This document shows positions 27,682 through 51,454 of a stretch of 64,000 bases of DNA, in pieces. Positions within the stretch are counted from its first letter, which is position 1. Each line of letters opens with the position of its first letter. The stretch covers positions 35,496 through 99,495 of the forward strand of contig JAIBBU010000010.1 in NCBI GenBank assembly GCA_019694515.1, in the 5' to 3' direction. The DNA is from Oligoflexia bacterium. Lineage in GTDB: Bacteria; Bdellovibrionota_C; UBA2361; JBGSMV01. The notes beneath the pieces are model-generated. The model searched no databases. It was not told where the DNA came from and saw only the letters and a list, made by a program, of their open reading frames with translations. A program made the position numbers and the translations under genes.

Positions 27682-28530
27682 TTGGGAGAAATCATGCCAG
27701 CCGTAAGCGGAGTAGGGATTGGACTGCGTCGTGATTTGGCCGATGAAATCATTGCGCTAGAGAACAGTCCGATTCGTTTTCTGGAATGCGCCCCGGAGAA
27801 CTGGATGGGGGTCGGTGGATATTGGGGGAAAAAGCTGCGGCAAGCTGCTGAACATTATCCCTTCAACTGTCACGGACTGTCGCTCTCTCTGGGGAGCCCC
27901 GAGCCGCTCGATCATATCTTCTTGCAGCGGCTAAAGAAATTCTTTGCCGACTTTCCGGTGCAGATCTACTCCGAGCATCTGAGTTTCACCAAATGCGACA
28001 ACGCTCATACCTATGAGCTGCTGCCGATGCCCTTTCGTTCTGACGCGGTGCGTCATGTAGCGGGCCGCATTCGAGAGGTGCAAGAGATTTTGGAACGGCA
28101 GATCGCGATTGAAAATGTTTCTTACTACACCCCGGTAGCTCCCGAGCTGGGCGAGGCTGAATTCATCGCGGCGATTCTCAAAGAAGCCGACTGCAAGCTG
28201 CTGCTGGATGTGAACAATGTGTTCGTGAATGCCTTTAATCACGGCTATGATGCGCGCGGCTTCATCTCGGCCTTGCCCCTCGATCGTGTTGCTTACATCC
28301 ATATGGCGGGCCACGAGCAGCGCACTCCGGATCTGATTATTGATACGCATGGCGAGCCGATTATCGATCCGGTCTATGAACTTTTTGAGTGGACGATTGA
28401 GCGTTTACACCCCGTGCCGGTGCTCCTGGAGCGTGATTATAACTTCCCGGAGTTTCCGGATTTACTAGCAGAAGTTTCGAGGTTGCAAGCGATTGCTTCC
28501 AAAGTTTGGCACCAACAGGCGGCGGCTTAA
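27682..28530 (+). CDS. DUF692-family multinuclear non-heme iron oxidase (MNIO; MbnB/TglH/HvfB/BufB family RiPP maturase)
   Basis: GVGIGLRRDL, the SEHLSF motif, ENVSYY, LLLDVNNVFVNAFNHGYDA, IHMAGH and IDTHG are all hallmark DUF692 motifs in the correct order. Confidence 0.9.
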   Translation: MGEIMPAVSGVGIGLRRDLADEIIALENSPIRFLECAPENWMGVGGYWGKKLRQAAEHYPFNCHGLSLSLGSPEPLDHIFLQRLKKFFADFPVQIYSEHLSFTKCDNAHTYELLPMPFRSDAVRHVAGRIREVQEILERQIAIENVSYYTPVAPELGEAEFIAAILKEADCKLLLDVNNVFVNAFNHGYDARGFISALPLDRVAYIHMAGHEQRTPDLIIDTHGEPIIDPVYELFEWTIERLHPVPVLLERDYNFPEFPDLLAEVSRLQAIASKVWHQQAAA

Positions 28531-28532
28531 AA

Positions 28533-29294
28533 ATGGCGCTTGAAAAGAATACCACCGAAGTGATGCGTGAATTTGCGCAGTTTTGCCGCACTGGGGAGTA
28601 TCATCCGATCGCGGGGGTGCGGGACGATCGTGCCCAAGAGTATCGCCGTCTGGCATTCAATATCGTCGAGCACGCGTTGCGACGCGCATATCCTCTAACC
28701 GTCCGGGCGCTTGGAACGGAGTGGTCCGGGCTGATACAGCGCTTTTATGCCGAGTGGCCCCTGGTGAGTCCGGAGCTGTGGAAGATGCCGCGTCAGCTAT
28801 GTGATTTTGTCGGCGGCACGCAGTACGGTATGGCGACGGGGCGTCCCTGGCTTAATGACCTGCTACGTTTTGAGTGGTTGGAGATCGAGGTCTTCATGAT
28901 GGAGGATGTCGATCCTGGGGTGGTTAACGCCAAGGGGGATTTGGCCGGCCAGCCGGTAGTGCTGAATCAAGAGGTCGTTTTTTCGCGCTTTGAATATCCG
29001 GTCTTCAAAGTCGCAGCGGACCAGCTGACGGCACAGCAGGGCTGTTTTTTCCTGGCAACCTACCGTCATCCGCAAACACTAGAAGCTTGCTATACTGAGC
29101 TCTCGCTCTTATTCTTAAGGGTGCTTGAGATTCTGCAGATCCAGGAACTCTCCGGGAGTGCCGCGATCGAGCGAGCTGCTTCTGATTTGGGGATCGATCT
29201 GTCGGGCGGTGATGCGCGCCGCATGCTCGAGCTGCTCTCGGCTGCCCGGTCCGACGGTTTAATTTTAGGGGTAAGGAATGTTGATCTTCGCTAA
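28533..29294 (+). CDS. DUF2063-family partner protein of MNIO enzymes (MbnC/HvfC/BufC-like precursor-binding subunit)
   Basis: The start ATG lies 2 nt after the MNIO stop. DUF692 genes are characteristically followed by a DUF2063 gene. Sequence-level assignment is by context plus size, roughly 250 aa. Confidence 0.65.
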   Translation: MALEKNTTEVMREFAQFCRTGEYHPIAGVRDDRAQEYRRLAFNIVEHALRRAYPLTVRALGTEWSGLIQRFYAEWPLVSPELWKMPRQLCDFVGGTQYGMATGRPWLNDLLRFEWLEIEVFMMEDVDPGVVNAKGDLAGQPVVLNQEVVFSRFEYPVFKVAADQLTAQQGCFFLATYRHPQTLEACYTELSLLFLRVLEILQIQELSGSAAIERAASDLGIDLSGGDARRMLELLSAARSDGLILGVRNVDLR

Positions 29295-41117: not shown

Positions 41118-42059
41118 ATGACGGACGGCGCAGTCCTCGCAATCGGAGAGCTCTTATGGGATCTACTTCTCGATGGAGCAATGTTGGGTGGAGCTCCCGC
41201 CAATTTTGCGAATCGGGTACGCCAATTCCGGGATGCGGTGGGCTTGGTTAGTCGAGTAGGAAGCGATGAACTGGGCAGAAAGGCCACCGACCAACTTGCG
41301 AAGCAGGGCTTGCCCGTTGATCTGATTCAACTCGATCCGGTGCATTCTACGGGAACAGTTGATGTGCGGCTGTCGGCGGATGGCAGCCCGAGTTTCAGAA
41401 TTAATCCCGATGTGGCATACGATTATCTCGAACTTACTCCCGCGCTTGAAGCCGCGGTAGAGAGCGCGGGATTGATCTATTTTGGAACATTGGCCCAGCG
41501 CCAGTTCGTTACCCGCGCTGCGTTGTACCAGCTCCTGGATACGGTCCCGCACCTGCCGCGTTTTCTCGATATTAATTTACGCGCCGAATGTTTCAGTGCC
41601 GAAACTGTCGAGGCTTCACTGCGGCGCGCTACAATTCTGAAATTGAATCAAGACGAAGTGGGGCGGTTGAACTCGCTGCTCAGTCTTGGCACGGACGATG
41701 TGCTGCAGTTTTGTCAGCAGATCTTCGACCGCTTCCCGATCCAATCCGTACTAGTCACCCTGGGGGCGGGGGGAGCACTGCTTGTGCCGCGTCAGGGAGA
41801 TCCAATTTATGAGCCGGGGCTCCGGGTTAAGGTAAGCGATACGATCGGAGCCGGCGATGCTTTTGCCGCAGGCTTTGTGGTCAAGCAGCAGCAGGGCGCT
41901 CCCGCAGCAAAATGCCTCGCATTTGCGAATGCCCTAGGCTCGGCTTCCGCGATGGTAAAGGGAGGTATGGGAGTGCTTACTTCGGAACAGGTTGAAATGG
42001 TGATGAAAACGGATATTGAACGCACCACCTTGCCGCAATTCGCAAGCTACCGAAGGTAA
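41118..42059 (+). CDS. PfkB-family carbohydrate kinase (fructokinase/ribokinase-like)
   Basis: The C-terminal DTIGAGDAFAAGFV is the PfkB signature 2. Confidence 0.85.
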   Translation: MTDGAVLAIGELLWDLLLDGAMLGGAPANFANRVRQFRDAVGLVSRVGSDELGRKATDQLAKQGLPVDLIQLDPVHSTGTVDVRLSADGSPSFRINPDVAYDYLELTPALEAAVESAGLIYFGTLAQRQFVTRAALYQLLDTVPHLPRFLDINLRAECFSAETVEASLRRATILKLNQDEVGRLNSLLSLGTDDVLQFCQQIFDRFPIQSVLVTLGAGGALLVPRQGDPIYEPGLRVKVSDTIGAGDAFAAGFVVKQQQGAPAAKCLAFANALGSASAMVKGGMGVLTSEQVEMVMKTDIERTTLPQFASYRR

Positions 42060-42123: not shown

Positions 42124-43152
42124 TTAATCCGGATATCCGTCGGGGTTTCCTTTATACCAGCGCACGACAGTTTCAGCGATCTGTCGGATAGAGGTATAGC
42201 GCGGTTTCCAACCTAGAGTCTGCTGGAGGCGGGTTGAGTCAGCCACCAATTCTGGCGGATCTCCCGGTCGTCGCGGCTCAACGGAGTAGGGAACTGGGCG
42301 TCCAGCGGCTTCGCCTGCGGCTTCGATGATCTCGAGATTGCTGGCACCCTGACCGGTACCGACATTGAATACCTGAAAACCGTCGAGTCTGCGCGCAAAT
42401 AACGCTTCGAGCGCCATTACATGGGCTCTGGCCAAGTCCTCCACATGAATATAATCGCGTACGCAGGTTCCATCCGGAGTGGGATAATCATTGCCAAAGA
42501 GTTTGAGAGAAGCTCCAACGCCCAGGGCGGCCCGCACCGCGTTAGGCATAAGATGAGTTTCGGGGCGGTGATCCTCGCCCAGCAGTCCATCCTCTGAAGC
42601 GCCGCAGGCGTTGAAGTAACGCAGCGCTACCGCTCGAAAACGATCTTCGGCTGCAATGCTAGGATTAATCTGATCGCTCACGACGGTGGCCCTGAGCATC
42701 GACTCCATGGCCAACTTTGTTTCGCCGTATGGATTAGTGGGGTTAGTGGGATGTTCTTCGTCGAGGGCGCGGTCCTGGAGCGGAACCCCGTAGGTTGCAG
42801 CCGTGCTGCTAACGAGCGCCGTGTTAACTCCGGCTTTTCGCATCGCAGTAAAGAGCTGCACGGAAAGAGCCACATTGGCGTTATAGTAACGCAGCGGATC
42901 GCGCACTGAATCGGGCACGCTGGTGAGCGCGGCGAAATGGACTAAAGCGTCGAAGGCTCGCCCTTGGAAAAAGCCCTCCAACTCGGCAGGATTCTCAAGG
43001 CTGCCGCGCACCAACTCAGCATCTCTATGCACTGCGGCGGCATGCCCAAAGGAAAGATTATCAAATACCGAAACTGTGTGCCCGCTTTCGACCAATGATC
43101 GCACGGTAAAACTGCCGATGTATCCGGCTCCACCAATTACTGCTACTTTCAC
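42124..43152 (-). CDS. galE: UDP-glucose 4-epimerase GalE
   Basis: VAVIGGAGYIGS is the Rossmann motif, and YxxxK is within ...PYGETKLAMES.... The GTG start at 43152 has AGGAG 5 nt upstream; the track ORF extends to 43215. Confidence 0.9.
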   Translation of the reverse strand: MKVAVIGGAGYIGSFTVRSLVESGHTVSVFDNLSFGHAAAVHRDAELVRGSLENPAELEGFFQGRAFDALVHFAALTSVPDSVRDPLRYYNANVALSVQLFTAMRKAGVNTALVSSTAATYGVPLQDRALDEEHPTNPTNPYGETKLAMESMLRATVVSDQINPSIAAEDRFRAVALRYFNACGASEDGLLGEDHRPETHLMPNAVRAALGVGASLKLFGNDYPTPDGTCVRDYIHVEDLARAHVMALEALFARRLDGFQVFNVGTGQGASNLEIIEAAGEAAGRPVPYSVEPRRPGDPPELVADSTRLQQTLGWKPRYTSIRQIAETVVRWYKGNPDGYPD

Positions 43153-43448
43153 AAACACTCCTGCTAAAGCGGGACTAGATAGCCCGAAAGTATCGGGCGC
43201 CGGGACCGTAGTCAATCGCGCACTACAGATCCTTCTTTGGGTGCTCTTTGGAGCCAGGCAGCAATCGTCGTCCGAAATTTCGCGTGCTTGCTGATGCCAA
43301 AAGTTGAACGTTATCGCAGTAAGTGTACGAATGCGTTTAGAAATCCGGCAGGACTGGCAATGGGCCGGCCGGCATTAGCCCCCGGTGCTTTCCGGCGGCG
43401 TTCACCAGCCGACCGAATAACTCCGCCGACTGGAATATTATTGGACTT

Positions 43449-43506: not shown

Positions 43507-44676
43507 ATGTCTGATGACCTCCCCAGCCAGCTTCGTGTGAAGTTCTCTCAGATGTACGGTGATACGGGTAATCCTGTTGAAATGTTCTTTTGCCCGGGCC
43601 GGGTGAATCTAATCGGCGATCACATTGATTATAACGGCGGAAACGTGTTTCCGATGGCATTGGAGCGGGGAATTTTCGCCGCCGCGCGGCGCCGCACCGA
43701 TCGGCTGGTGCACCTGCACTCACTTCAACGCAGCGAAGTTTGCGAGTTCGATCTCTCAAATCCGATCGTATTCAATGAAAAAGATGGATGGGGCAACTAT
43801 CCCAAAGGTGTCGCGAAGATCCTTTTGGAGGAGGGGCACGGACTACCGGGAGTCGAGATTCTATTCTCCAGTAATCTGCCGATGGCCGCGGGGGTATCCT
43901 CATCTGCCGCGCTGGAAGTGCTTACCGGCTACATACTTCTCGCTGAGGGAGCAGAACATTCAATCGATCGAGTGGCACTGGCATTGGCTGCGCAGCGTGC
44001 CGAGCGTGAATTTGTAGGGGTCAACTGCGGTATCATGGACCAGTTCAGTGTGGCGATGTCCAAGAAGGACCATGCAGTATTCTTAAACTGTGCAACATTG
44101 GAGCACCGTTATGTGCCGATTAACCTGGCTCAGCATGTAATCTGTGTGATCAACACCAACAAGCCGCGAGAATTGGCAGGCTCCAAATATAATGAGCGAC
44201 GTGGGCAGTGTGAGAGTGCGCTCGAGCTTCTGAAGAAGAGCCGGAAGCTAAACAATCTTTGCGAGGCTGACATAGAGCTGGTAGAAACTCAGATTGCGGA
44301 TCCGCTATTAAAGCGCCGCGCCCGCCATGTAGTGAACGAACAGCAGTACGTATTGGAGGCGGTTAAGGCCCTGGGCGCCAACCGGTTGGATGATTTCGGC
44401 GCGCTCCTCGTAAAGAGTCACCGCTCCCTGCAACATGATTACGAAGTGTCTTGCCCGGAGCTGGACTGCCTAGTCGATCTAAGTATCAGCCACCCCGGCT
44501 GCCTTGGGGCGCGCATGACCGGTGCCGGCTTTGGTGGCTGCGCCGTGGCCTTGGTTGAACGTAGCCAAATCAGCGATTTTGAAGCCAAAGTAGCCGCCGG
44601 CTACGCCGAGAGAACAGGTCGAACGGCGGACTTTATCTGTTCCGGGGGTGCTTCAGGGGTTTGCCAGCAAAGCTAG
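43507..44676 (+). CDS. galK: Galactokinase GalK
   Basis: GRVNLIGDHIDYNGG is the galactokinase signature. The GHMP motif PMAAGVSSSAA is also present. Confidence 0.92.
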   Translation: MSDDLPSQLRVKFSQMYGDTGNPVEMFFCPGRVNLIGDHIDYNGGNVFPMALERGIFAAARRRTDRLVHLHSLQRSEVCEFDLSNPIVFNEKDGWGNYPKGVAKILLEEGHGLPGVEILFSSNLPMAAGVSSSAALEVLTGYILLAEGAEHSIDRVALALAAQRAEREFVGVNCGIMDQFSVAMSKKDHAVFLNCATLEHRYVPINLAQHVICVINTNKPRELAGSKYNERRGQCESALELLKKSRKLNNLCEADIELVETQIADPLLKRRARHVVNEQQYVLEAVKALGANRLDDFGALLVKSHRSLQHDYEVSCPELDCLVDLSISHPGCLGARMTGAGFGGCAVALVERSQISDFEAKVAAGYAERTGRTADFICSGGASGVCQQS

Positions 44677-44771: not shown

Positions 44772-47291
44772 GTGAATAGTCCCATTACCTCTCAGGAGCT
44801 TGACCGCGCCCGTCAATGGCTTGAACAGTTTCAGAATCGGGATCTTCTCCCGCTAACTGATTTCCTTCGCAATCTCGGGATCCGAGATGTGCTTGGTTCA
44901 ATGGGTGGGGTTGAAGCCACCATTAAGATCAATCGTGAGGGCGAGGAGGAGTTGGTGACCGATGCTGACCCAAAGGTAAGCACAGCAGCATTACAGTGGA
45001 TCGCACATCGGTACCCCTACTCATTCTCCGAAGAGCATCTCCCCCCCGGCAATAATGCCGACCTTCTAGTGGCGCGAGGAATCATCGATCCTGTAGACGG
45101 TTCGCGGGAACTGCAGCTAGGACGGGTTGGCGGGGTGGCGATGTTATACGGACAGATCACGCCTCTACCTAAGTATAGCCCCGAGACCGGGACACCAGTC
45201 CTGACCCCCCAGATTACCCATGGAATTATCGTGATTCCAAGACCAGACGGGGAAGACGAGGTCTTTTATAACGATGCTTCTGCCACTTTCGAGGGCGGCG
45301 AAGCGCACGTGAAGCGCACCCTTCGATATCTGCGCGGCGGAGTCGAGACCATTTGTCCCACAGCTCGATCGATTGATGAAATCAGAGCGAGTGGTGTGCT
45401 GCGGGTGCATGTAAGAGGGGTCTTCGACGAAAAATTCGAGGAAGAGTTCCATGCGCGTCCAGGGCAGCTTCCCAAGCATGCTGATTTTAAGTTCGATGTT
45501 TCACATATCCAAGCATTTCGTGACTATTGCCGTGATCTGGCCGCCGTTCTGGGTGTCGAAGTCGAATTCGTAAGGGCCGGCGGCTCAGGATCCGGATTAG
45601 CGCAGCTGCTTTCGGGGCGGGTAGATGTGGCGATCACACTGCGCGGCGACAGAGCTAAGTTTTGGGATGTGGCTCCCGGCTTGGCGCTGGTCCCCGCTGC
45701 TGGCGGTTGGATCTGCCAGGGTTCAGGGATCGAGTTTTCAGAGCAGGCGTTGCTGTCTGGTGATTATAGCCTGCCCTCCGGCTGGGTCGCCTCGATCAGC
45801 CTTCCTCGGGAATTGATATTTAGCGCGCAGGTGGGCGGAGATCGATTGGCACCGGCGGCGGTGCGTCCATTGGAAAGCATCTCCACTCCGCGAATTGAGA
45901 TTGATCCGCGAGTTGTCCATCATCAACCGGAGCTCGCCGCTGTCATCACCGAATATCTAAGAACCTCCGAGCGCTCGGGGTTGAGTTTGCTGCAAAGAGC
46001 AAATGAGATTTGCTGGGATCAGATCGCTGCGCCCTACCAAAAGCCGGAGATCTCTCCTGACGCCGTTTCGTTGCCCTCTACTCTTTATGATCCTTCGAAG
46101 ATTGCCAGGGAGGATCGTGCGGCCTTAAGAGAATTGGGAACACGCGCCTACCGGAACGGCAAGGTAGGCTGTGCGATGGTCGCCGGAGGCCAGGGTACTC
46201 GTCTAGGATATGACGATCCTAAGGGATGCTATCCAATCTTTCAGTATACCGGACCCGGGGACCAGGTCCCCACGAACGTTAGTATCTTCGAGGTGCAGGC
46301 TGGTAAAGTTTTTGCCGCCGGTAATCGCTATGATACAGAGCTACCATTCGTAATCATGACTGGCGCCGACACCGATCGTCGGACCCGCGAGTTTTTCAAA
46401 GAGAAGCGTTACTTTGGTCTCGGGCGTGGGCAGGTGCAGTTCTTTCAGCAGGGTACTTTGCCGACGCTGGATCTTCAGGGTAGAGCGCTTTTGGCTAGCC
46501 CCGCTCGGCTCCTTGAGAATCCTGACGGCCACGGCGGATTTTTCGAGAGTGTCAATGCCTGTGGACTAGTGGAGCGGCTGCTGCATAGCGGCCAGGAATA
46601 TCTGGTCTACCTGCAGGTGGATAACATCTTAGCATTGGTTGATGACACTTTGATGGTCGGTATTGCCGAGAAGGAACGAGCCGACCTCGTGGTAAAAGTA
46701 ATTCGCAAAGCCCACCCCCAGGAGAAGCTCGGGCATCTAATTAACCGTAATGGACGCGATGAAATTTTAGAATACACCGATGTATCGGCCGATGATGTGC
46801 TGATCCCCGCAGCCGATGGCGAACCGATTTTGCGCTGGGGGAGTCCTTCGCTTTATTGCGTCAGGTTAGATTTCCTCAAGCGCGCTTATGAGGAAGGATT
46901 CCGCCTACCGATCCATCGCAGCGCCAAGACCGTTAGCGCCTTCCGCGATGGCCGCTTAGTGGAGCTGGATGGGTTCAAACAGGAGCGCTTCTTCCACGAT
47001 CTGCTACTTTGTCCCTCGGGTGTGAAAGCAGTAGGACTCGTGGTGCCGGATCGTGAACGTGAGTTCGCTCCGATCAAGAATCTGCACGGCGCGGATAGCG
47101 TCGATACGGCACGCCATCTTGCTGCGGCAGAATTCTCACGCTGGTTGATGGGGGCCGGTCTGCTGGTACCGGAAACGTCCAATATCTGGATCTCTCCGCA
47201 TCTTGCCGGCTGTCACTCGCATTTCTCGGAGCTCTATGGTCAAGGACGGGTGATGATTGACCATACCAAGGAAGGGGTACTCATCCGCTAG
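44772..47291 (+). CDS. Bifunctional fusion protein: N-terminal inositol-monophosphatase/CysQ-like sugar-phosphatase domain plus C-terminal UDP-sugar/UDP-GlcNAc pyrophosphorylase (UDPGP/UAP1-USP family) domain
   Basis: N-domain IIDPVDGSRE (the DPxDGT motif) and FWDVAPGLALVPAAGG (the WDxAAG motif). C-domain CAMVAGGQGTRLGYDDPKGCYPI, compared with UAP1 LLAGGQGTRLGVAYPKGMY. 839 aa, GTG start. It sits between galK and galT. Confidence 0.75.
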   Translation: MNSPITSQELDRARQWLEQFQNRDLLPLTDFLRNLGIRDVLGSMGGVEATIKINREGEEELVTDADPKVSTAALQWIAHRYPYSFSEEHLPPGNNADLLVARGIIDPVDGSRELQLGRVGGVAMLYGQITPLPKYSPETGTPVLTPQITHGIIVIPRPDGEDEVFYNDASATFEGGEAHVKRTLRYLRGGVETICPTARSIDEIRASGVLRVHVRGVFDEKFEEEFHARPGQLPKHADFKFDVSHIQAFRDYCRDLAAVLGVEVEFVRAGGSGSGLAQLLSGRVDVAITLRGDRAKFWDVAPGLALVPAAGGWICQGSGIEFSEQALLSGDYSLPSGWVASISLPRELIFSAQVGGDRLAPAAVRPLESISTPRIEIDPRVVHHQPELAAVITEYLRTSERSGLSLLQRANEICWDQIAAPYQKPEISPDAVSLPSTLYDPSKIAREDRAALRELGTRAYRNGKVGCAMVAGGQGTRLGYDDPKGCYPIFQYTGPGDQVPTNVSIFEVQAGKVFAAGNRYDTELPFVIMTGADTDRRTREFFKEKRYFGLGRGQVQFFQQGTLPTLDLQGRALLASPARLLENPDGHGGFFESVNACGLVERLLHSGQEYLVYLQVDNILALVDDTLMVGIAEKERADLVVKVIRKAHPQEKLGHLINRNGRDEILEYTDVSADDVLIPAADGEPILRWGSPSLYCVRLDFLKRAYEEGFRLPIHRSAKTVSAFRDGRLVELDGFKQERFFHDLLLCPSGVKAVGLVVPDREREFAPIKNLHGADSVDTARHLAAAEFSRWLMGAGLLVPETSNIWISPHLAGCHSHFSELYGQGRVMIDHTKEGVLIR

Positions 47292-47389: not shown

Positions 47390-48427
47390 TCAGGAGATCT
47401 TCCGCCCTACGGCGCTGACTTCACGCAGTCGCGCTGCAGCCTGCTCCGGCAGCAGGTCGCGCTGCGGCTCGGCGCAGAGCTCAAAGCCCGCAATGAACTT
47501 TTTTACGCTCGCCGATCGCAGAAGCGGAGGGAAGAATACCTGATGCAACCTGAACCCCAGCCAGCTCTGCCCGTCCGATGGCGCTTGATAGAGCCCCATC
47601 GAATATGGAAATGAGCAATCAAATAAATTGTCGTATCTGATCAGCAGCTGCTGCAATAACTCTGACCAGGCAGCCACCTGCTCGGGATGCAGCTCTCCAC
47701 TATGTCTAGCCCCACGGCGGGGCAGCAGCGTTACTTCGAAGGGCCACATGGCCCAAAACGGGACCACCGCCACCCATTCCGAATTAGCACACACGATGCG
47801 CTCCGCTGCACGCAGCTCCCAATCCAGATAATCTCCTAATAGATCTCGGCCATGCGCTTGCACATAATCTGCCTGCGCCCGCGCCGATCGCAAAGGGATA
47901 TCAGGAATGTAAGAGGTGGCCCAGATCTGCCCGTGCGGATGCGGGTTCGAGCAGCCCATAATGGCGCCCTTGTTTTCGAAGATCATGGTGTGCGCGATAT
48001 CGGGCCGTCTTGAGAGCTCGCTATATTGCTGAGTCCAGCAGTTAATTACAGACTCAATTGCTGTTGCCGAGAGGTCAGTCAGAGTCAGATCGTGGCGCGG
48101 TGAGAAACAGACTACCCGGCAGATACCGTCAGCGGCTTCGGCTTTGATAAACGGGGCAGATGGAAGTTCTAAAGCGCTCTGATCCGGAGGAAGCAGCGCC
48201 GCGAAATCATTCTCGAAAACAAAGAGCTCGGTATAGTTTGGATTCTGCATGCCGTTGGCGCGCGTGTTCCCCGGGCAGAGATAGCAGCCGGAGTCGTATT
48301 TCGGACGATTCGGCGGGGGCGCCTTTTCGGCTGCGCCAAGCCAAGGCCGTGCGGCACGGTGGGGAGAAACCAGGATCCATTCCTGCCGCAGCGGATTCCA
48401 GCGTCGGTGGGGTCTATCTAAGGTCAT
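47390..48427 (-). CDS. galT: Galactose-1-phosphate uridylyltransferase GalT (type 1, HIT superfamily)
   Basis: RWNPLRQEWILVSPHRAARPW, CYLCPGN, and the HPHGQIWA active-site motif. Confidence 0.9.
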   Translation of the reverse strand: MTLDRPHRRWNPLRQEWILVSPHRAARPWLGAAEKAPPPNRPKYDSGCYLCPGNTRANGMQNPNYTELFVFENDFAALLPPDQSALELPSAPFIKAEAADGICRVVCFSPRHDLTLTDLSATAIESVINCWTQQYSELSRRPDIAHTMIFENKGAIMGCSNPHPHGQIWATSYIPDIPLRSARAQADYVQAHGRDLLGDYLDWELRAAERIVCANSEWVAVVPFWAMWPFEVTLLPRRGARHSGELHPEQVAAWSELLQQLLIRYDNLFDCSFPYSMGLYQAPSDGQSWLGFRLHQVFFPPLLRSASVKKFIAGFELCAEPQRDLLPEQAAARLREVSAVGRKIS

Positions 48428-48514: not shown

Positions 48515-50188
48515 TCACTCCAACGCCAAACTGCTGGGCGGTGCCGGAGCCTGCGAGTCTCCGTCGCAAGCAAAGGCTCCTGCATAACCATTCGAGACAT
48601 GGCAGGCAGGTGGGTTTGATGAAACTCTTAGATCAAAGCTGCTGCGACTGAGAAAGGCCGGATCCCGCTCGACGGAATTGAGATCTTCTCCACGCGCCTG
48701 CCAGGCCGAAAATAGAATTGGCCCGGAATCCGATGTCGTAACTTTCACCGGAGCTGCGAAATTATAAAAGATATTGTTCGATCCGATGTAGTTGGCTGCG
48801 CCTGGCGGAGTGAGGCATTCCGAACGTATTAGCGAGCCGTCTTGCACTGCTTTAGTGCAGGCGATGATATTATTGTAGAATTCTGTGGGGCGGATCACTG
48901 GGCTGGGGGTCGCATTTATATTCACCACAAAGTTGACCGCAGGAACGTCGCTCGATTGCGAGTAAAAAGTGTTGTGTTCAAAACGCGCGCCGACTTGCGC
49001 ACCACCCAAGAGAGCAGCGTTCTCTTTTGAGGCCAGATAATTGTCCCGAAAAATTGTCTGATTGTTCTCGCCAATTGGATTCTCATTGTAGCCCTGCTGA
49101 TAAAAGGCCGGCCGATCGTTGCCAAAAATTCGATTGCCGATGAAGGCCAGTCCGCTTGGATCCGTAACTGATGCGGTATCGTTGCCCGATGCCAAGAGAA
49201 TCGTGGAATAAAACATTGCGAGCTTCGAAGGATTCTTGGTGTCGAAGCAGTTATTAGTAAAGTCAATGTTGTCCAGGTCGTCGCGCCCGTACATGGCGTT
49301 GGTGTTGCCATCTCCTACCACAGAGTTATTGGCAAAAATGTTGCGATGAGTCGGAGCGGCCTTGGAGCGCCGCCAGGTAAACACCGTCGGTTCGTCGCCG
49401 ACTTTATTACGGGTGGAATGGAAATAGTTGTTTCGGATCGTATGCTCTACCTCGGGGGTGGCATAATCAGCATTGAGGGGATTGGTCGAGATGATCGTCA
49501 CTAAGCGGAGCGCGCCTACAATCCATGCGGTCTTGAGGCAGTTGCTTTCCACGATATTACCCTCAAAGGTGAGGGGCGAAATCTTGTCCTGATGTCCGAC
49601 ACTTTGGATATGATTGGCCGCCGTGGCCATCATGCAGACACTGCTGCCGGCGTCATACGTTGTGTCCAGCTGGCTGCAGTCGCACTTAAAAGTCGAGTTT
49701 AGAATGCTGATGTTGGATCCGGCCTCTAGACTGAGCGCGCGATCGCCTTTGATCGCGCCGGAAGCGAGGTCAAAGACACTATCTCTGACGGAGATGTTCG
49801 CAAGCTGGCTTGGCAGCGCGTCACCTTTCAAACTCAAACTTCCGTAGGTCACCACATTTTGAATCGTCACGTTTTGACGATCGGTCACCGATACGTTGCC
49901 GTAGAACTGCCGGTTCTGACCCTTTAAGGTGACGTTGCTGCTGTTGATGGTGATACCGCCGCGATTAGAGCTGGACGGAGAATAATTCAGGCAATAGGTT
50001 CCAGGAGCCGAGATTACATACCCATTTGTACCCCATGCTGCCGAGTCGATAATGGTGCCGTCGACCCCAGCGGTGCAGCTCAGGACGCTAACCGGACGCG
50101 GGGCCGGAGTGGGACAGGGGTACACGCTCTGCGAAAAGACGGCCCAGGGCCATAGTAAAATACCGAATAAAACCGAACATCTAGTCAT
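48515..50188 (-). CDS. Secreted right-handed parallel beta-helix (pectin-lyase-fold) repeat protein
   Basis: Start moved to the Met before the signal peptide (MTRCSVLFGILLWPWAVFSQS). It carries multiple PbH1-type repeats (NNIIACT, NNIFYNF, NNYFHST, NNCFDTK, GNRIFGN, DNYLASK, HNTFYSQ). Confidence 0.65.
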   Translation of the reverse strand: MTRCSVLFGILLWPWAVFSQSVYPCPTPAPRPVSVLSCTAGVDGTIIDSAAWGTNGYVISAPGTYCLNYSPSSSNRGGITINSSNVTLKGQNRQFYGNVSVTDRQNVTIQNVVTYGSLSLKGDALPSQLANISVRDSVFDLASGAIKGDRALSLEAGSNISILNSTFKCDCSQLDTTYDAGSSVCMMATAANHIQSVGHQDKISPLTFEGNIVESNCLKTAWIVGALRLVTIISTNPLNADYATPEVEHTIRNNYFHSTRNKVGDEPTVFTWRRSKAAPTHRNIFANNSVVGDGNTNAMYGRDDLDNIDFTNNCFDTKNPSKLAMFYSTILLASGNDTASVTDPSGLAFIGNRIFGNDRPAFYQQGYNENPIGENNQTIFRDNYLASKENAALLGGAQVGARFEHNTFYSQSSDVPAVNFVVNINATPSPVIRPTEFYNNIIACTKAVQDGSLIRSECLTPPGAANYIGSNNIFYNFAAPVKVTTSDSGPILFSAWQARGEDLNSVERDPAFLSRSSFDLRVSSNPPACHVSNGYAGAFACDGDSQAPAPPSSLALE

Positions 50189-50365
50189 TGAAATCAGTTC
50201 CCACCCGTAGAAAGTGCTGTAGCAAAGTTGAGATGCAAAAACTATACAACGAGGCTTGGGCGCAATGCGACGGGATTTCGGATATATATTGCTGGGCGCA
50301 CAGGACATTGGCTGAGTACGCAGAACGACACCATGTGCAGCTTTCAACAAGGATCGAGGTGGCTT

Positions 50366-51454
50366 ATGGGTAGAGTATTTGCAATTTTGGTGGCGGTAAT
50401 AGTTGGTTTGAATGGGAGGCCCGCCGCGCTCAGGGCGGAGGATGCCAAGATTCGGATTGGCGTCTCGATCCCATTGTCCGGTCCGGTCGCAAACTACGGT
50501 GATGATATTAAGCGCGCCATTACCTTTGCTAATGAGCAGCTCTTTCGTCAGCGTTTCCAATTCCTGATTGAAGATGACAAGTGCGATCCTAAAGAGGCGG
50601 TCATCGTTGCGCACAAGTTCATTGCGCTAGAGAAGGTCAAATATGTGGTTGGATTTGCCTGCAGTGGGGCGTTATTCGCAGCTGCGCCGCTTTATGAAAA
50701 ATCCGGAATCATTGCCATGGGAACTCTGACTAGCGCCGCGAATATTAGCAATGCGGGAGATTTTATCTTTAGGACCTCTCCTAACGATCGCGATGCCGCC
50801 CAGACTCTGGGAGCATATCTAGCTTCGCATTACCGCCGTATCGGCGTCCTTTCGGAGGAGACGGATTACTGCGAAGGGATGTTGGTGGAATTATCTAAGA
50901 CTAAGGGTTTAGATCTAGTGACGGAGCGTTATCGTAGCGGAGAGTCCGATTTTCGGACCTTGCTTCTGCGCTTGCTTGCCAAGAAGCCTGAAGCGCTGAT
51001 GCTCAACCCGCAGTCCGATGAACCTCTGATCTCAATCGTGAAACAAATTCGCGCCGTGGATTCTAAAATTCCTCTGGTGGGCGCCTACTATCCGGGCAGC
51101 GCACAGTTTTTGGGTGCAGTAAAAGGTTTGGCCGAGGGAATGGTTTTCGTTGATATGCCCACCTCTACCCAGCTGATATCGCCAGATAAAGCCCGCCTTT
51201 ATCAACAATTTGTCGAGAAGTACGGTGCATTAAGAGGGGTCGATCTAACCTTTGTGGTTGCAGTCAATGCCATGATCGCAATTGATGGAGCGCTTAGGAG
51301 CGGTGGTGATCTGCGGCAGGCTCTATATCACGGCAAGTTTGAGGGACTAGCGGGACCGTTCAGCTTCGATCGGGACGGCAATGCTGATGGGATTAGTTTC
51401 GTGATGAAACATATCGTCGATGGCTCTCCGCAGCTGCTTCACAGTAAAAATTAA
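50366..51454 (+). CDS. ABC transporter substrate-binding protein, branched-chain amino acid (LivK/LivJ, type I PBP) family
   Basis: Signal peptide, then [33 protein letters not shown] precedes the ATG at 50366. Confidence 0.8.

What the first reader, a model, noticed from the sequence alone, without database searches (positions are those of the whole stretch)
44772..47291. Fusion of an IMPase/CysQ-like phosphatase domain to a UAP1/USP-type UDP-sugar pyrophosphorylase, embedded in the galE-galK-galT cluster
Seen in sequence: the N-terminal half has DPVDGSRE and WDVAPG..AAGG, the metal-binding and substrate motifs of the inositol monophosphatase / fructose-1,6-bisphosphatase / CysQ fold. The C-terminal half has the GGQGTRLG...PKG nucleotidyltransferase signature of eukaryotic-type UDP-GlcNAc/UDP-sugar pyrophosphorylases. 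It sits between galK and galT. Inference: the cell may run an Isselbacher-type route (Gal-1-P plus UTP giving UDP-Gal) in parallel with, or instead of, the GalT exchange reaction. The fused phosphatase is unexpected, since it would oppose sugar-1-P formation unless it acts on a different phosphate (for example sugar-6-P or PAP) or is a pseudo-enzyme regulatory domain. I am not aware of this fusion as a described enzyme.
Basis: partly seen in the sequence, partly recalled or inferred. Interest (0 to 1): 0.65.

Follow-up and report, generated by a model that had tools for sequence, protein, structure and literature searches.

The report
Phosphatase–UDP-sugar pyrophosphorylase fusion in galactose operon
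A single 839-residue bacterial protein joins an intact inositol-monophosphatase-type phosphatase to a complete eukaryote-type UDP-sugar pyrophosphorylase; it lies directly after galactokinase in three distantly related genomes, so it is a real, very rare and undescribed bifunctional enzyme of galactose metabolism whose phosphatase substrate is still unknown.

Summary
ORF 44772-47291 (+) encodes 839 aa. Residues ~57-350 match Pfam Inositol_P, and every metal-ligand motif is intact. A 33-aa linker follows. Residues ~384-839 are a complete UAP1/AGX-type UDPGP pyrophosphorylase (AF2 pLDDT >95; Foldseek E 1e-36).

It is not a frameshift artefact. Two independent assemblies carry the same fusion at 32-35% identity. 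All three share the layout galE, galK, fusion, then a convergent galT. A fourth contig has the phosphatase alone, still beside galT. The phosphatase half is as conserved as the pyrophosphorylase core.

Only three fusions appeared in a library standing for ~15 billion proteins. I found no paper describing the architecture. NCBI names the protein only 'UTP--glucose-1-phosphate uridylyltransferase'.

My best reading is inferred, not shown. The protein acts on hexose-1-phosphates. The C-domain uridylylates Gal-1-P and/or Glc-1-P, priming or bypassing GalT. The N-domain hydrolyses surplus hexose-1-P as a relief valve, as some IMPase-fold enzymes do with Gal-1-P.

Rivals remain open: a bisphosphate or nucleotide substrate, PPi removal, a regulatory domain, or an amino-sugar role. 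No usable model of the N-domain was obtained. Verdict: new variant of known kinds, moderately interesting.

The parts
44772..47291 (+). Whole fusion gene: 839 aa, GTG start, stop codon included
   Evidence: ORF list. The protein is identical to NCBI MBX7137725.1 from an Oligoflexia MAG.
44772..45821 (+). N-terminal IMPase-superfamily phosphatase domain (aa 1-350; conserved core aa 57-350). It carries two family-specific insertions relative to canonical IMPase and CysQ.
   Evidence: Pfam Inositol_P 50.3 bits. A family profile hits IMPase 1 (2bji) at E 4e-8. Alignment with a canonical IMPase and a canonical CysQ.
45030..45035 (+). E87-E88 of the 'SEEH' motif, equivalent to the metal-binding and catalytic Glu70/Glu71 of human IMPase
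   Evidence: Invariant in all family members and in the canonical IMPase and CysQ.
45087..45110 (+). D106-P-V-D109-G-S-R-E113, the IMPase motif A (DPxDG[ST]) that supplies metal ligands
   Evidence: E113 is invariant in the family.
45576..45596 (+). A269-GGSGSG-275, the counterpart of the IMPase 'GSAAL' and BPNT1 'GGAGNK' substrate and phosphate loop
   Evidence: Invariant in the three fusions. G271-S272 are invariant across the superfamily alignment.
45663..45668 (+). W298-D299, the IMPase motif 'WD' (human Asp220, a metal ligand)
45822..45920 (+). Inter-domain linker (aa 351-383), rich in Pro and Ala and not conserved
   Evidence: Linkers are 32-40 aa long with 10-23% identity. AF2 pLDDT is about 30. 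The N-termini of stand-alone pyrophosphorylases map to about aa 373-380.
45921..47288 (+). Complete UAP1/AGX-type UDP-sugar pyrophosphorylase (aa 384-839): N-terminal helical part, Rossmann-like core and C-terminal domain
   Evidence: Pfam UDPGP. PDB sequence hits to UAP1 at 5e-46. AF2 pLDDT >95. Foldseek against UAP1/AGX gives E about 1e-36 and TM 0.8.
46185..46226 (+). Nucleotide-binding loop G472-GQGTRLG-479 ... P483-K-G485, including the equivalents of AGX1 Arg115 and Lys122
   Evidence: G473 and R477 are invariant in 54 homologues.
46518..46538 (+). N583-PDGHGG-589 sugar and uridine loop. UAP1 has PDGNGG; His587 replaces AGX1 Asn223.
46995..46997 (+). His742 at the position of the AGX1 N-acyl 'gatekeeper' Phe383
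   Evidence: Position mapped from the UAP1 alignment. His occurs in 5 of 54 homologues, namely the three fusions, P0014 and P0018. The gatekeeper role is described in PMC7276986.
43507..44676 (+). galK (galactokinase), 95 nt upstream on the same strand and probably co-transcribed
   Evidence: NCBIfam NF003705 447 bits against a cutoff of 385. No convincing terminator or promoter in the gap. The same order is seen in L002 and L003.
47390..48427 (-). galT (UDP-glucose--hexose-1-phosphate uridylyltransferase), convergent with the fusion
   Evidence: NCBIfam NF008724 469 bits against a cutoff of 448. galT is convergent in L001, L002 and L003 as well.
42124..43215 (-). galE (UDP-glucose 4-epimerase), with Leu at the substrate-size gatekeeper position
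   Evidence: TIGR01179 365 bits against a cutoff of 262. Gatekeeper motif GDPPELVAD.

Best explanation
SHOWN. This is a genuine, evolutionarily retained two-enzyme polypeptide that belongs to the Leloir galactose cluster. Its C-terminal 456 residues are a complete UAP1/AGX-fold UTP:sugar-1-phosphate uridylyltransferase with all catalytic residues. Its N-terminal ~350 residues are a very divergent member of the Mg2+-dependent IMPase phosphomonoesterase superfamily with every metal ligand intact.

INFERRED. Both domains act on the hexose-1-phosphates of the pathway. GalK makes Gal-1-P. The C-domain converts hexose-1-P plus UTP into UDP-hexose. With Glc-1-P as substrate this primes GalT with UDP-Glc. 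With Gal-1-P it is an Isselbacher-type bypass. The N-domain is a lower-affinity hexose-1-phosphatase, most likely acting on Gal-1-P. It would drain the toxic, pyrophosphorylase-inhibiting Gal-1-P pool and release trapped phosphate when UTP or UDP-Glc is limiting. The fusion fixes the two competing fates of one metabolite at a 1:1 enzyme ratio.

Sub-confidences: the fusion is real, 0.97; it has a role in galactose metabolism, 0.85; both domains are catalytically active, 0.75; the N-domain substrate is a hexose-1-P, about 0.35-0.4.
For: The ORF and both domains are confirmed. Two independent fusions, P0012 and P0015, have the same architecture. The order galE-galK-fusion with a convergent galT is conserved, although the gal proteins are only 45-61% identical between loci. 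The nearest stand-alone pyrophosphorylases are not in gal clusters. In L001 the phosphatase is a stand-alone gene that is still convergent with galT, so it has its own gal-linked function. The metal-ligand motifs are invariant. The N-domain core is as conserved as the pyrophosphorylase core: 43-45% against 35-41% pairwise identity, and 32% against 26% invariant columns. The best solved relatives by profile are mammalian IMPase 1 and 2. Literature precedents: brain IMPase is a galactose-1-phosphatase, and a Dictyostelium IMPase is a Gal-1-P-specific phosphatase (PMC12875667). Gal-1-P is an alternative IMPase substrate and inhibits UDP-Glc pyrophosphorylase (PMC3882048). USP removes Gal-1-P by the Isselbacher route, and a plant UAP isozyme also uses Glc-1-P (PMC6329318). 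The C-domain is modelled at pLDDT >95 with a UAP1 fold, and its catalytic residues are intact. The AGX1 N-acyl gatekeeper Phe383 is His in the fusions, which is consistent with a non-acetylated sugar.
Against: No assay has been done, and there is no reliable N-domain model (pLDDT 30-77 and 39). A Gal-1-P phosphatase co-expressed with GalK risks a futile ATP-burning cycle. The N-domain also looks like PAP and bisphosphate phosphatases: DGSRE, GGSGSG, and a C-terminal part that matches SAL1 and BPNT1 best. It also has family-specific invariant basic residues (R199, R211, H213, R215, H245) that could bind a second anionic group. L003 has a separate, weakly YihX-like HAD gene (glucose-1-phosphatase-like) beside galT. 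The characterised relatives of the C-domain are UDP-GlcNAc/GalNAc enzymes. GalE has a small gatekeeper residue, Leu, so an amino-sugar role is not excluded. Whether the genome has pgm, galU, glmU or ppa is unknown, because only 64 kb was seen.
Confidence: 0.37

Rival explanations
1. The N-domain acts on a doubly charged substrate rather than on a hexose-1-P. It might remove a distal phosphate from a sugar bisphosphate such as hexose-1,6-bisphosphate, so that the resulting sugar-1-P is passed to the fused pyrophosphorylase; this is the logic of GmhB followed by HldE in ADP-heptose synthesis. Alternatively it might hydrolyse a phosphorylated nucleotide, as CysQ and BPNT1 do.
For: Fusions usually join consecutive steps (general knowledge). 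The motifs DPVDGSRE and GGSGSG resemble BPNT1 (DPVDGTKE, GGAGNK), and the C-terminal part of the domain matches PAP phosphatases best. The family-specific invariants R199, R211-x-H213-x-R215 and H245 could form a second anion site. This reading avoids a futile cycle with GalK.
Against: No enzyme that would make a hexose bisphosphate is conserved in the clusters. GalK already delivers Gal-1-P directly. The profile search ranks IMPase 1 and 2 above CysQ and BPNT1. No NCBIfam CysQ, FBPase or HisN model is matched near its cutoff. In L001 the domain works without a fused pyrophosphorylase.
Confidence: 0.2
2. The cluster, or at least the fusion, serves amino-sugar activation. The C-domain is a true UDP-GlcNAc/UDP-GalNAc pyrophosphorylase, a eukaryote-like replacement or supplement for GlmU. 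It would work with a GalE that also epimerises UDP-HexNAc. The phosphatase would act on a hexosamine phosphate.
For: The best solved relatives by sequence and by fold are all UAP1/AGX enzymes. JGI names homologues UDP-GlcNAc/GalNAc diphosphorylase. glmS lies directly upstream of galE in L002. The GalE gatekeeper is Leu, not the bulky Tyr of E. coli (the gatekeeper rule is recalled from memory).
Against: galK and galT score above NCBI's equivalog cutoffs for galactokinase and Gal-1-P uridylyltransferase. The AGX1 N-acyl gatekeeper Phe383 is replaced by His, and Asn223 by His, as in USP and UGP-type enzymes (the USP/UGP comparison is from memory). The glmS linkage is seen in only one locus.
Confidence: 0.15
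3. The N-domain is not a phosphatase in vivo. It would be a ligand-sensing or oligomerisation module, since the IMPase fold forms dimers and tetramers, that regulates the pyrophosphorylase in response to a sugar phosphate.
For: The domain is extremely divergent: word-indexed searches find no close relatives. It has large insertions. Moonlighting IMPases such as SuhB, which acts as a Nus factor, appear among the PDB hits.
Against: All metal-binding and catalytic residues are invariant across sequences that are only 32-45% identical. The domain persists as a stand-alone gene next to galT in L001. Pseudo-enzymes usually lose their metal ligands (general knowledge).
Confidence: 0.12
4. The N-domain pulls the pyrophosphorylase reaction forward by hydrolysing the PPi it releases, acting as a built-in pyrophosphatase.
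For: The thermodynamic logic is sound, because the uridylyltransferase reaction is freely reversible. The di- or tri-metal site and the extra basic residues could in principle bind PPi.
Against: To my knowledge no IMPase-superfamily member is a pyrophosphatase. The stand-alone L001 version has no fused PPi source. There is no similarity to PPase families.
Confidence: 0.07
5. The fusion is an artefact: two adjacent genes joined by an assembly or sequencing error in a MAG.
For: The source is a metagenome-assembled genome, and the protein is a singleton cluster.
Against: Three independent assemblies encode the same continuous architecture, with collinear alignment through both domains. The N-termini of the stand-alone enzymes map just after a typical 33-aa linker.
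Confidence: 0.02

Closest known systems
UAP1/AGX1/AGX2 (eukaryotic UDP-GlcNAc/GalNAc pyrophosphorylase, Pfam UDPGP)
   Same: The C-domain shares the whole three-part fold (Foldseek E about 1e-36, TM about 0.8). It also shares the GGQGTRLG...PKG loop, the EY pair and the catalytic Lys.
   Different: The protein is bacterial and is fused to a phosphatase. AGX1 Asn223 is His here. The N-acyl gatekeeper Phe383 is His here. There is an 8-residue insert after PKG. It lies in a gal cluster. Its substrate is unknown.
UDP-sugar pyrophosphorylase (USP; plants, Leishmania, Bifidobacterium BLUSP), the Isselbacher route
   Same: It belongs to the same Pfam family. The proposed job is the same: Gal-1-P or Glc-1-P plus UTP gives UDP-hexose, which removes Gal-1-P (PMC6329318).
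   Different: It is much more distant in sequence and fold (PDB E 1e-5 to 1e-12; Foldseek 1e-23). USP is not fused to a phosphatase. Here GalT is also present.
IMPase-fold galactose-1-phosphatases (brain IMPase; Dictyostelium DdGal1Pase; plant VTC4 for L-Gal-1-P)
   Same: They share the superfamily, the metal-ligand motifs and a proposed two-metal mechanism. They have a documented link to Gal-1-P (PMC12875667; PMC3882048).
   Different: The N-domain is about 80 residues longer, with two insertions. Its best match to IMPase 1 reaches only E about 1e-8, and only with a family profile. It cannot be assigned to IMPase proper, CysQ, FBPase or HisN. Its activity is untested.
CysQ/BPNT1/SAL1 3'(2'),5'-bisphosphate nucleotidases
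   Same: They share the superfamily. They also share the DPxDG[ST]xE and GG[AS]G motifs and have the best local match to the C-terminal part of the N-domain.
   Different: The profile score is lower than for IMPase. No CysQ NCBIfam model is hit. There is no sulfur-assimilation context. An ordinary CysQ found in a genome scan (L011) is clearly a different protein.
Bifunctional sugar-activating enzymes (FKP fucokinase/GDP-fucose pyrophosphorylase; GlmU; HldE with the GmhB phosphatase step)
   Same: They follow the same principle of fusing a nucleotidyltransferase to another enzyme of the same sugar pathway (FKP papers listed; GlmU, HldE and GmhB are from established knowledge).
   Different: In those enzymes the partner is a kinase or an acetyltransferase that feeds the transferase. 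Here the partner is a phosphatase, which at face value competes with the transferase for its substrate.

Membership tests
IMPase superfamily (Pfam PF00459 Inositol_P; Mg2+-dependent, Li+-sensitive phosphomonoesterases) | Significant match to the family HMM above the curated cutoff | tested here: met
   50.3 bits against a gathering score of 27. P0012 scores 54.1 bits. A family profile hits IMPase 1 at E 4e-8.
IMPase superfamily | Metal ligands and catalytic residues: Glu70/71, Asp90-Pro-x-Asp93-Gly-Thr95 and Trp219-Asp220 (human IMPase numbering) | tested here: met
   E87/E88, D106-P-V-D109-G-S111 and W298-D299 align with the canonical IMPase and CysQ and are invariant in the family.
IMPase superfamily | Alpha-beta-alpha-beta-alpha sandwich fold | tested here: inconclusive
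   The AF2 N-domain has pLDDT 30-77 in the full-length model and 39 alone. Foldseek finds nothing significant; FBPases are the top hits, but only at E 0.2.
IMPase superfamily | Phosphatase activity | not testable with these tools
   This needs an enzyme assay.
Specific subfamilies: IMPase/SuhB, CysQ, HisN, FBPase | Match to an NCBIfam equivalog model at or above its cutoff | tested here: not met
   The only hit is HisN TIGR02067, at 28 bits against a cutoff of 275. There is no CysQ, SuhB or FBPase hit. I therefore do not file the domain under any of these.
UDPGP family (Pfam PF01704), UAP1/AGX branch | HMM match, complete three-domain fold and nucleotide-binding loop | tested here: met
   114 bits against a cutoff of 22. 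UAP1 chains hit at E 5e-46. pLDDT is >95 and Foldseek TM is 0.8. G473, R477, K484, D617, E667/Y668 and K769 are conserved.
UDPGP family, UAP1/AGX branch | Residues that recognise the N-acetylhexosamine: AGX1 Asn223, and the gatekeepers Phe381/Phe383 around the N-acyl group | tested here: not met
   Asn223 is His587. Phe381 is kept as F740. Phe383 is His742. The gatekeeper role comes from PMC7276986. The protein works like a UAP, but its GlcNAc/GalNAc specificity is doubtful.
UDPGP family | UTP:sugar-1-P uridylyltransferase activity and sugar specificity | not testable with these tools
   This needs an assay with Gal-1-P, Glc-1-P, GlcNAc-1-P and GalNAc-1-P.
Leloir gal cluster | Conserved adjacency to galK, galT and galE in independent genomes | tested here: met
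   The window, L002 and L003 all show it. L001 shows the linkage to galT. The stand-alone pyrophosphorylase relatives lack this context.

The most novel reading that the evidence does not exclude
The N-domain founds a new subfamily of IMPase-fold enzymes that evolved as dedicated D-galactose-1-phosphate (hexose-1-P) phosphatases inside bacterial gal operons. Fusing it to a UDP-hexose pyrophosphorylase creates a single-protein 'partition valve'. The valve would decide, according to UTP availability, whether Gal-1-P is activated or dephosphorylated. It would be a natural anti-galactosaemia device and the first native Gal-1-P phosphatase tied to the Leloir pathway.
Probability: 0.3. Interest if true: 0.65.

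Novelty: new variant of a known kind. Interest (0 to 1): 0.5.

Why it matters
Gal-1-P toxicity is a general problem from E. coli to humans, where it underlies classic galactosaemia. No dedicated natural Gal-1-P phosphatase is known within a Leloir operon. The only Gal-1-P-selective enzyme, a Dictyostelium IMPase, was found by screening in 2025 and was used to reverse the Leloir pathway for tagatose production (PMC12875667). A phosphatase physically coupled to a UDP-hexose pyrophosphorylase would be a new way of controlling a toxic sugar-phosphate node. It could also serve as a one-protein tool for UDP-sugar synthesis or for sugar-phosphate detoxification. If the phosphatase has a different substrate, the fusion still marks an unrecognised step attached to bacterial galactose metabolism, and it defines a new, very divergent branch of the IMPase superfamily. 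On the practical side, the current public annotation, 'UTP--glucose-1-phosphate uridylyltransferase', misses half of the protein.

Tried and rejected
1. Frameshift or misassembly: rejected, because three independent fusions exist.

2. Word-indexed protein searches with the N-half alone and with a 3-sequence N-domain profile returned nothing useful. They did not even recover the known fusions, only a distant Chloroflexota IMPase, P0161. This reflects a limit of the tool as well as the divergence of the domain.

3. Two GTDB genome scans with N-domain peptide patterns found no family member. The single hit, L011, is an ordinary 286-aa CysQ.

4. Structure of the N-domain. The full-length AF2 model gave pLDDT 30-77 for this half. 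The N-domain-only AF2 model gave pLDDT 39. Foldseek with the poor model gave nothing significant. No structural inference about the substrate pocket was therefore possible.

5. I looked for other IMPase or nucleotidyltransferase genes in the window to deepen the alignment or to find paralogues. There are none.

6. I looked for pgm, galU, glmU, galM or a sugar transporter in the 64-kb window to constrain the pathway. None was found.

7. Rfam and tRNA scans of the window found nothing.

8. Promoter and terminator scans around the cluster gave counts no higher than in shuffled sequence.

9. I considered inositol-related roles, such as UDP- or CDP-inositol or supply for a galactinol-like product. 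I rejected them as unsupported, because no inositol or glycosyltransferase genes are conserved in the clusters.


Full report
OBSERVATION

It spans 44772..47291 on the + strand and encodes 839 aa from a GTG start, with an AAAGG about 10 nt upstream.

Pfam finds two domains above their curated cutoffs:
- Inositol_P (PF00459): 50.3 bits against 27, E 2.9e-13.
- UDPGP (PF01704): 114.3 bits against 22, E 7e-33, at aa 463-771.

The quoted motifs are in place: DPVDGSRE at aa 106-113, WDVAPG..AAGG at aa 298-312, and GGQGTRLG...PKG at aa 472-485.

The neighbours all score above NCBI's equivalog cutoffs:
- galK, 43507-44676 (+), 95 nt upstream on the same strand.
- galT, 47390-48427 (-), convergent with the fusion.
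- galE, 42124-43215 (-).

A pfkB-family sugar kinase (41118-42059) lies next to galE. The cluster sits among housekeeping genes, with recO and grpE-dnaK-dnaJ upstream and lon downstream, so it is chromosomal. The protein is identical to NCBI MBX7137725.1 from an Oligoflexia MAG, where it is annotated only as 'UTP--glucose-1-phosphate uridylyltransferase'.

IS THE FUSION REAL?

Yes. I ran an exhaustive HMMER search of 1.84 billion cluster representatives with the whole protein. It returned two further proteins that align end to end:
- P0012: 929 aa, aligned over query 37-836.
- P0015: 827 aa, aligned over query 12-836.

Both carry the Inositol_P and UDPGP architecture. They come from independent Logan assemblies of different sequencing runs.

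The N-termini of the stand-alone pyrophosphorylases map to about residue 373-380 of the fusion. The architecture is therefore a full phosphatase domain (to about aa 350), a linker, and a full pyrophosphorylase. The linker is 32-40 residues long, rich in Pro and Ala, and not conserved. A frameshift or assembly artefact would have to have happened three times, so it is effectively excluded.

HOW RARE IS IT, AND IN WHAT CONTEXT?

Each of the three fusions is a singleton at the 90% identity level. I saw no other fusion among the top hits.

The gene context is strikingly conserved:
- L002: glmS-galE-galK-fusion, then one hypothetical gene, then a convergent galT.
- L003: galE-galK-fusion, then a convergent galT.

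Between loci the gal proteins are only 45-61% identical, and the fusion only 32-35%. The arrangement is therefore old and has been retained.

The nearest stand-alone pyrophosphorylases are P0014, P0016 and P0018, at 42-46% identity. They are not in gal clusters. The gal linkage is therefore a property of the fusion itself, and specifically of its phosphatase half. On metagenome contig L001, a relative of L002 that shares the galT-dam-mraZ synteny, the phosphatase-like protein ends in the linker with a stop codon. It has no pyrophosphorylase domain, yet it is still convergent with galT.

Two scans of the GTDB representative genomes with N-domain peptide patterns found no member. The one hit, L011, is an ordinary CysQ.

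THE C-DOMAIN

The AF2 model has pLDDT above 95 from about aa 380 to 839. Foldseek places it with UAP1/AGX1/AGX2 at E about 1e-36 and TM about 0.8 on the target. That is well ahead of Leishmania USP at E about 1e-23, and sequence searches give the same ranking.

The catalytic and nucleotide-binding residues are intact: G473, R477, K484, Q560, D617, E667/Y668 and K769.

Two sugar-side positions differ from UAP1:
- AGX1 Asn223 is His587, so PDGNGG becomes PDGHGG. This holds for nearly all bacterial homologues.
- The AGX1 N-acyl gatekeeper Phe383 is His742.

Phe381 and Phe383 gate the N-acyl group of GlcNAc/GalNAc-1-P (PMC7276986). His at this position occurs in only 5 of 54 homologues: the three fusions and their two closest stand-alone relatives. 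This hints at a non-acetylated, or differently substituted, sugar, but it does not prove it. A plant UAP isozyme is known to use Glc-1-P as well, and USP provides an Isselbacher route for removing Gal-1-P (PMC6329318).

In the other direction, all three GalE proteins have Leu at the size-gatekeeper position (GDPxxLVA). E. coli has Tyr299 and human GALE has Cys307 there (both from memory). N-acetylated UDP-sugars therefore cannot be excluded.

THE N-DOMAIN

It is extremely divergent. Word-indexed searches with it found essentially nothing. As a single sequence it reaches only E about 0.03 against PDB chains.

A four-sequence family profile gives mammalian IMPase 1 (2bji, E 4e-8). IMPA2, SuhB and CysQ (1e-5) and BPNT1/SAL1 (about 3e-4) follow. 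The PAP phosphatases match the C-terminal part of the domain best. No NCBIfam equivalog for SuhB, CysQ, HisN or FBPase is approached.

I aligned the family with a canonical IMPase (P0161) and a canonical CysQ (from L011). Every catalytic position is kept: D66, E87/E88, D106-P-x-D109-G110-S/T, G271-S272, D285 and W298-D299. The alignment also shows two large family-specific insertions.

Across the three fusions the N-domain core is at least as conserved as the pyrophosphorylase core:
- Pairwise identity: 43-45% against 35-41%.
- Invariant columns: 32% against 26%.

This argues strongly against a decaying pseudo-domain.

The family has its own invariant residues: R199, the strand R211-x-H213-x-R215, H245, and the AGGSGSG loop. 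I could not interpret them, because both AF2 attempts gave unreliable N-domain models (pLDDT 30-77 and 39) and Foldseek gave no significant match.

MECHANISM

What is shown:
- The protein is a real, conserved polypeptide.
- It has two catalytically competent-looking domains.
- It is linked to galK, galT and galE.

What is inferred is that it works on the hexose-1-phosphates of the Leloir pathway. The only phosphomonoesters in that pathway are Gal-1-P and Glc-1-P.

IMPase-fold enzymes have a documented Gal-1-P phosphatase activity. Examples are brain IMPase and a Gal-1-P-specific Dictyostelium enzyme that can pull the Leloir pathway backwards (PMC12875667). Gal-1-P is toxic and inhibits UDP-Glc pyrophosphorylase (PMC3882048).

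My best reading (confidence about 0.37) has two parts. The C-domain makes UDP-hexose from Glc-1-P and/or Gal-1-P, which primes or bypasses GalT. The N-domain is a lower-affinity hexose-1-phosphatase that relieves overload of Gal-1-P, or possibly of Glc-1-P. The fusion fixes the ratio of the two fates.

The main difficulty is the potential futile cycle with GalK.

The rivals are:
- A bisphosphate or nucleotide substrate, in the style of GmhB/HldE or CysQ (0.2).
- An amino-sugar role for the cluster (0.15; this is not exclusive of the others).
- A regulatory, non-catalytic domain (0.12).
- A built-in pyrophosphatase (0.07).
- An artefact (0.02).

COMPARISON WITH KNOWN SYSTEMS, AND NOVELTY

Each half belongs to a well-known superfamily. 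The combination was not found in the literature searched, and the public annotation does not reflect it.

Other UDPGP fusions do exist, with D-Ala-D-Ala ligase, PMI or PGI. Kinase-pyrophosphorylase fusions such as FKP are known. A phosphatase partner is unusual, because at face value it competes with the transferase for its substrate.

I rate this a new variant of known kinds. It includes a new, very divergent IMPase-superfamily branch and is of moderate interest (0.5). Interest would rise to about 0.65 if the domain proves to be a dedicated Gal-1-P phosphatase.

LIMITS
- Nothing was assayed.
- There is no usable structure for the N-domain.
- Only 64 kb of the genome was visible, and it contains no pgm, galU or glmU.
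N-domain-only homologues scoring below about 186 bits were therefore hidden beneath the 150 listed hits.

Noticed in passing
L001:2-1033 (+) and L001:1079-2179 (-): This is a stand-alone version of the unusual IMPase-like protein, cut at the 5' end of the contig. It ends with a stop codon in what is the linker of the fusions and is convergent with galT. Synteny (galT, dam methylase, mraZ) matches L002, so the pyrophosphorylase half has been lost or was never gained in a close relative.
   Followed up: yes
L003:13975-14622 (-): A 215-aa HAD-IA hydrolase lies directly beside galT. Its best NCBIfam match is the YihX-type glucose-1-phosphatase, at 90 bits, far below the cutoff of 295. This hints that hexose-1-P phosphatases recur around these gal clusters.
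   Followed up: partly
L008:8001-13467: The stand-alone relative P0018, which also has His at the AGX1 Phe383 position, sits in a row with a 353-aa HAD hydrolase, a hexokinase-family protein and a type I phosphomannose isomerase. This looks like a different sugar-activation cassette built around the same pyrophosphorylase subfamily.
   Followed up: partly
window 42124-43215 (-); L002:2287-3309; L003:7695-8693: All three GalE proteins have Leu at the substrate-size gatekeeper position (motif GDPxxLVA). E. coli has Tyr299 and human GALE has Cys307 there (both recalled from memory). These epimerases may therefore also accept UDP-GlcNAc and UDP-GalNAc.
   Followed up: partly
window 48515-50614 (-): A large ORF lies next to galT with no Pfam or NCBIfam match. 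It has an internal Met followed by a signal-peptide-like segment (MTRCSVLFGILLWPWAVFSQS), which suggests a secreted protein of about 567 aa. It is rich in N-x-S/T and 'NVT' repeats reminiscent of right-handed beta-helix carbohydrate-active proteins. The listed ORF start is probably too far upstream, and the ORF overlaps the ORF at 50228-51454 on the other strand.
   Followed up: partly
window 27682-29294 (+): An MbnB/TglH/ChrH (DUF692) RiPP-modification enzyme (332 bits) is followed, with overlap, by a DUF2063/NGO1945_C protein. This pair is typical of bufferin-like copper-related RiPP cassettes (from memory). I did not look for the small precursor ORF upstream.
   Followed up: no
window 41118-42059 (+): A pfkB-family sugar kinase lies adjacent to galE. 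Its best NCBIfam hits, all below cutoff, are tagatose kinase and fructokinase. It is not conserved next to the fusion in L002 or L003.
   Followed up: partly
proteins P0013, P0019, P0065, P0068 and P0077: Other unusual UDPGP architectures appeared among the homologues. There are giant proteins of 1888 and 1447 aa with three and two UDPGP stretches respectively, plus PH and ADH_N domains. There are also fusions of UDPGP to D-Ala-D-Ala ligase, to phosphomannose isomerase and to phosphoglucose isomerase.
   Followed up: no
L002:70-1905 (+): glmS (GATase plus SIS domains) lies immediately upstream of galE-galK-fusion in L002. This is a possible link between the cluster and amino-sugar synthesis, seen in only one locus.
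   Followed up: no
window 1-64000: No tRNA, tmRNA or Rfam family reaches threshold anywhere in the 64-kb window.
   Followed up: yes
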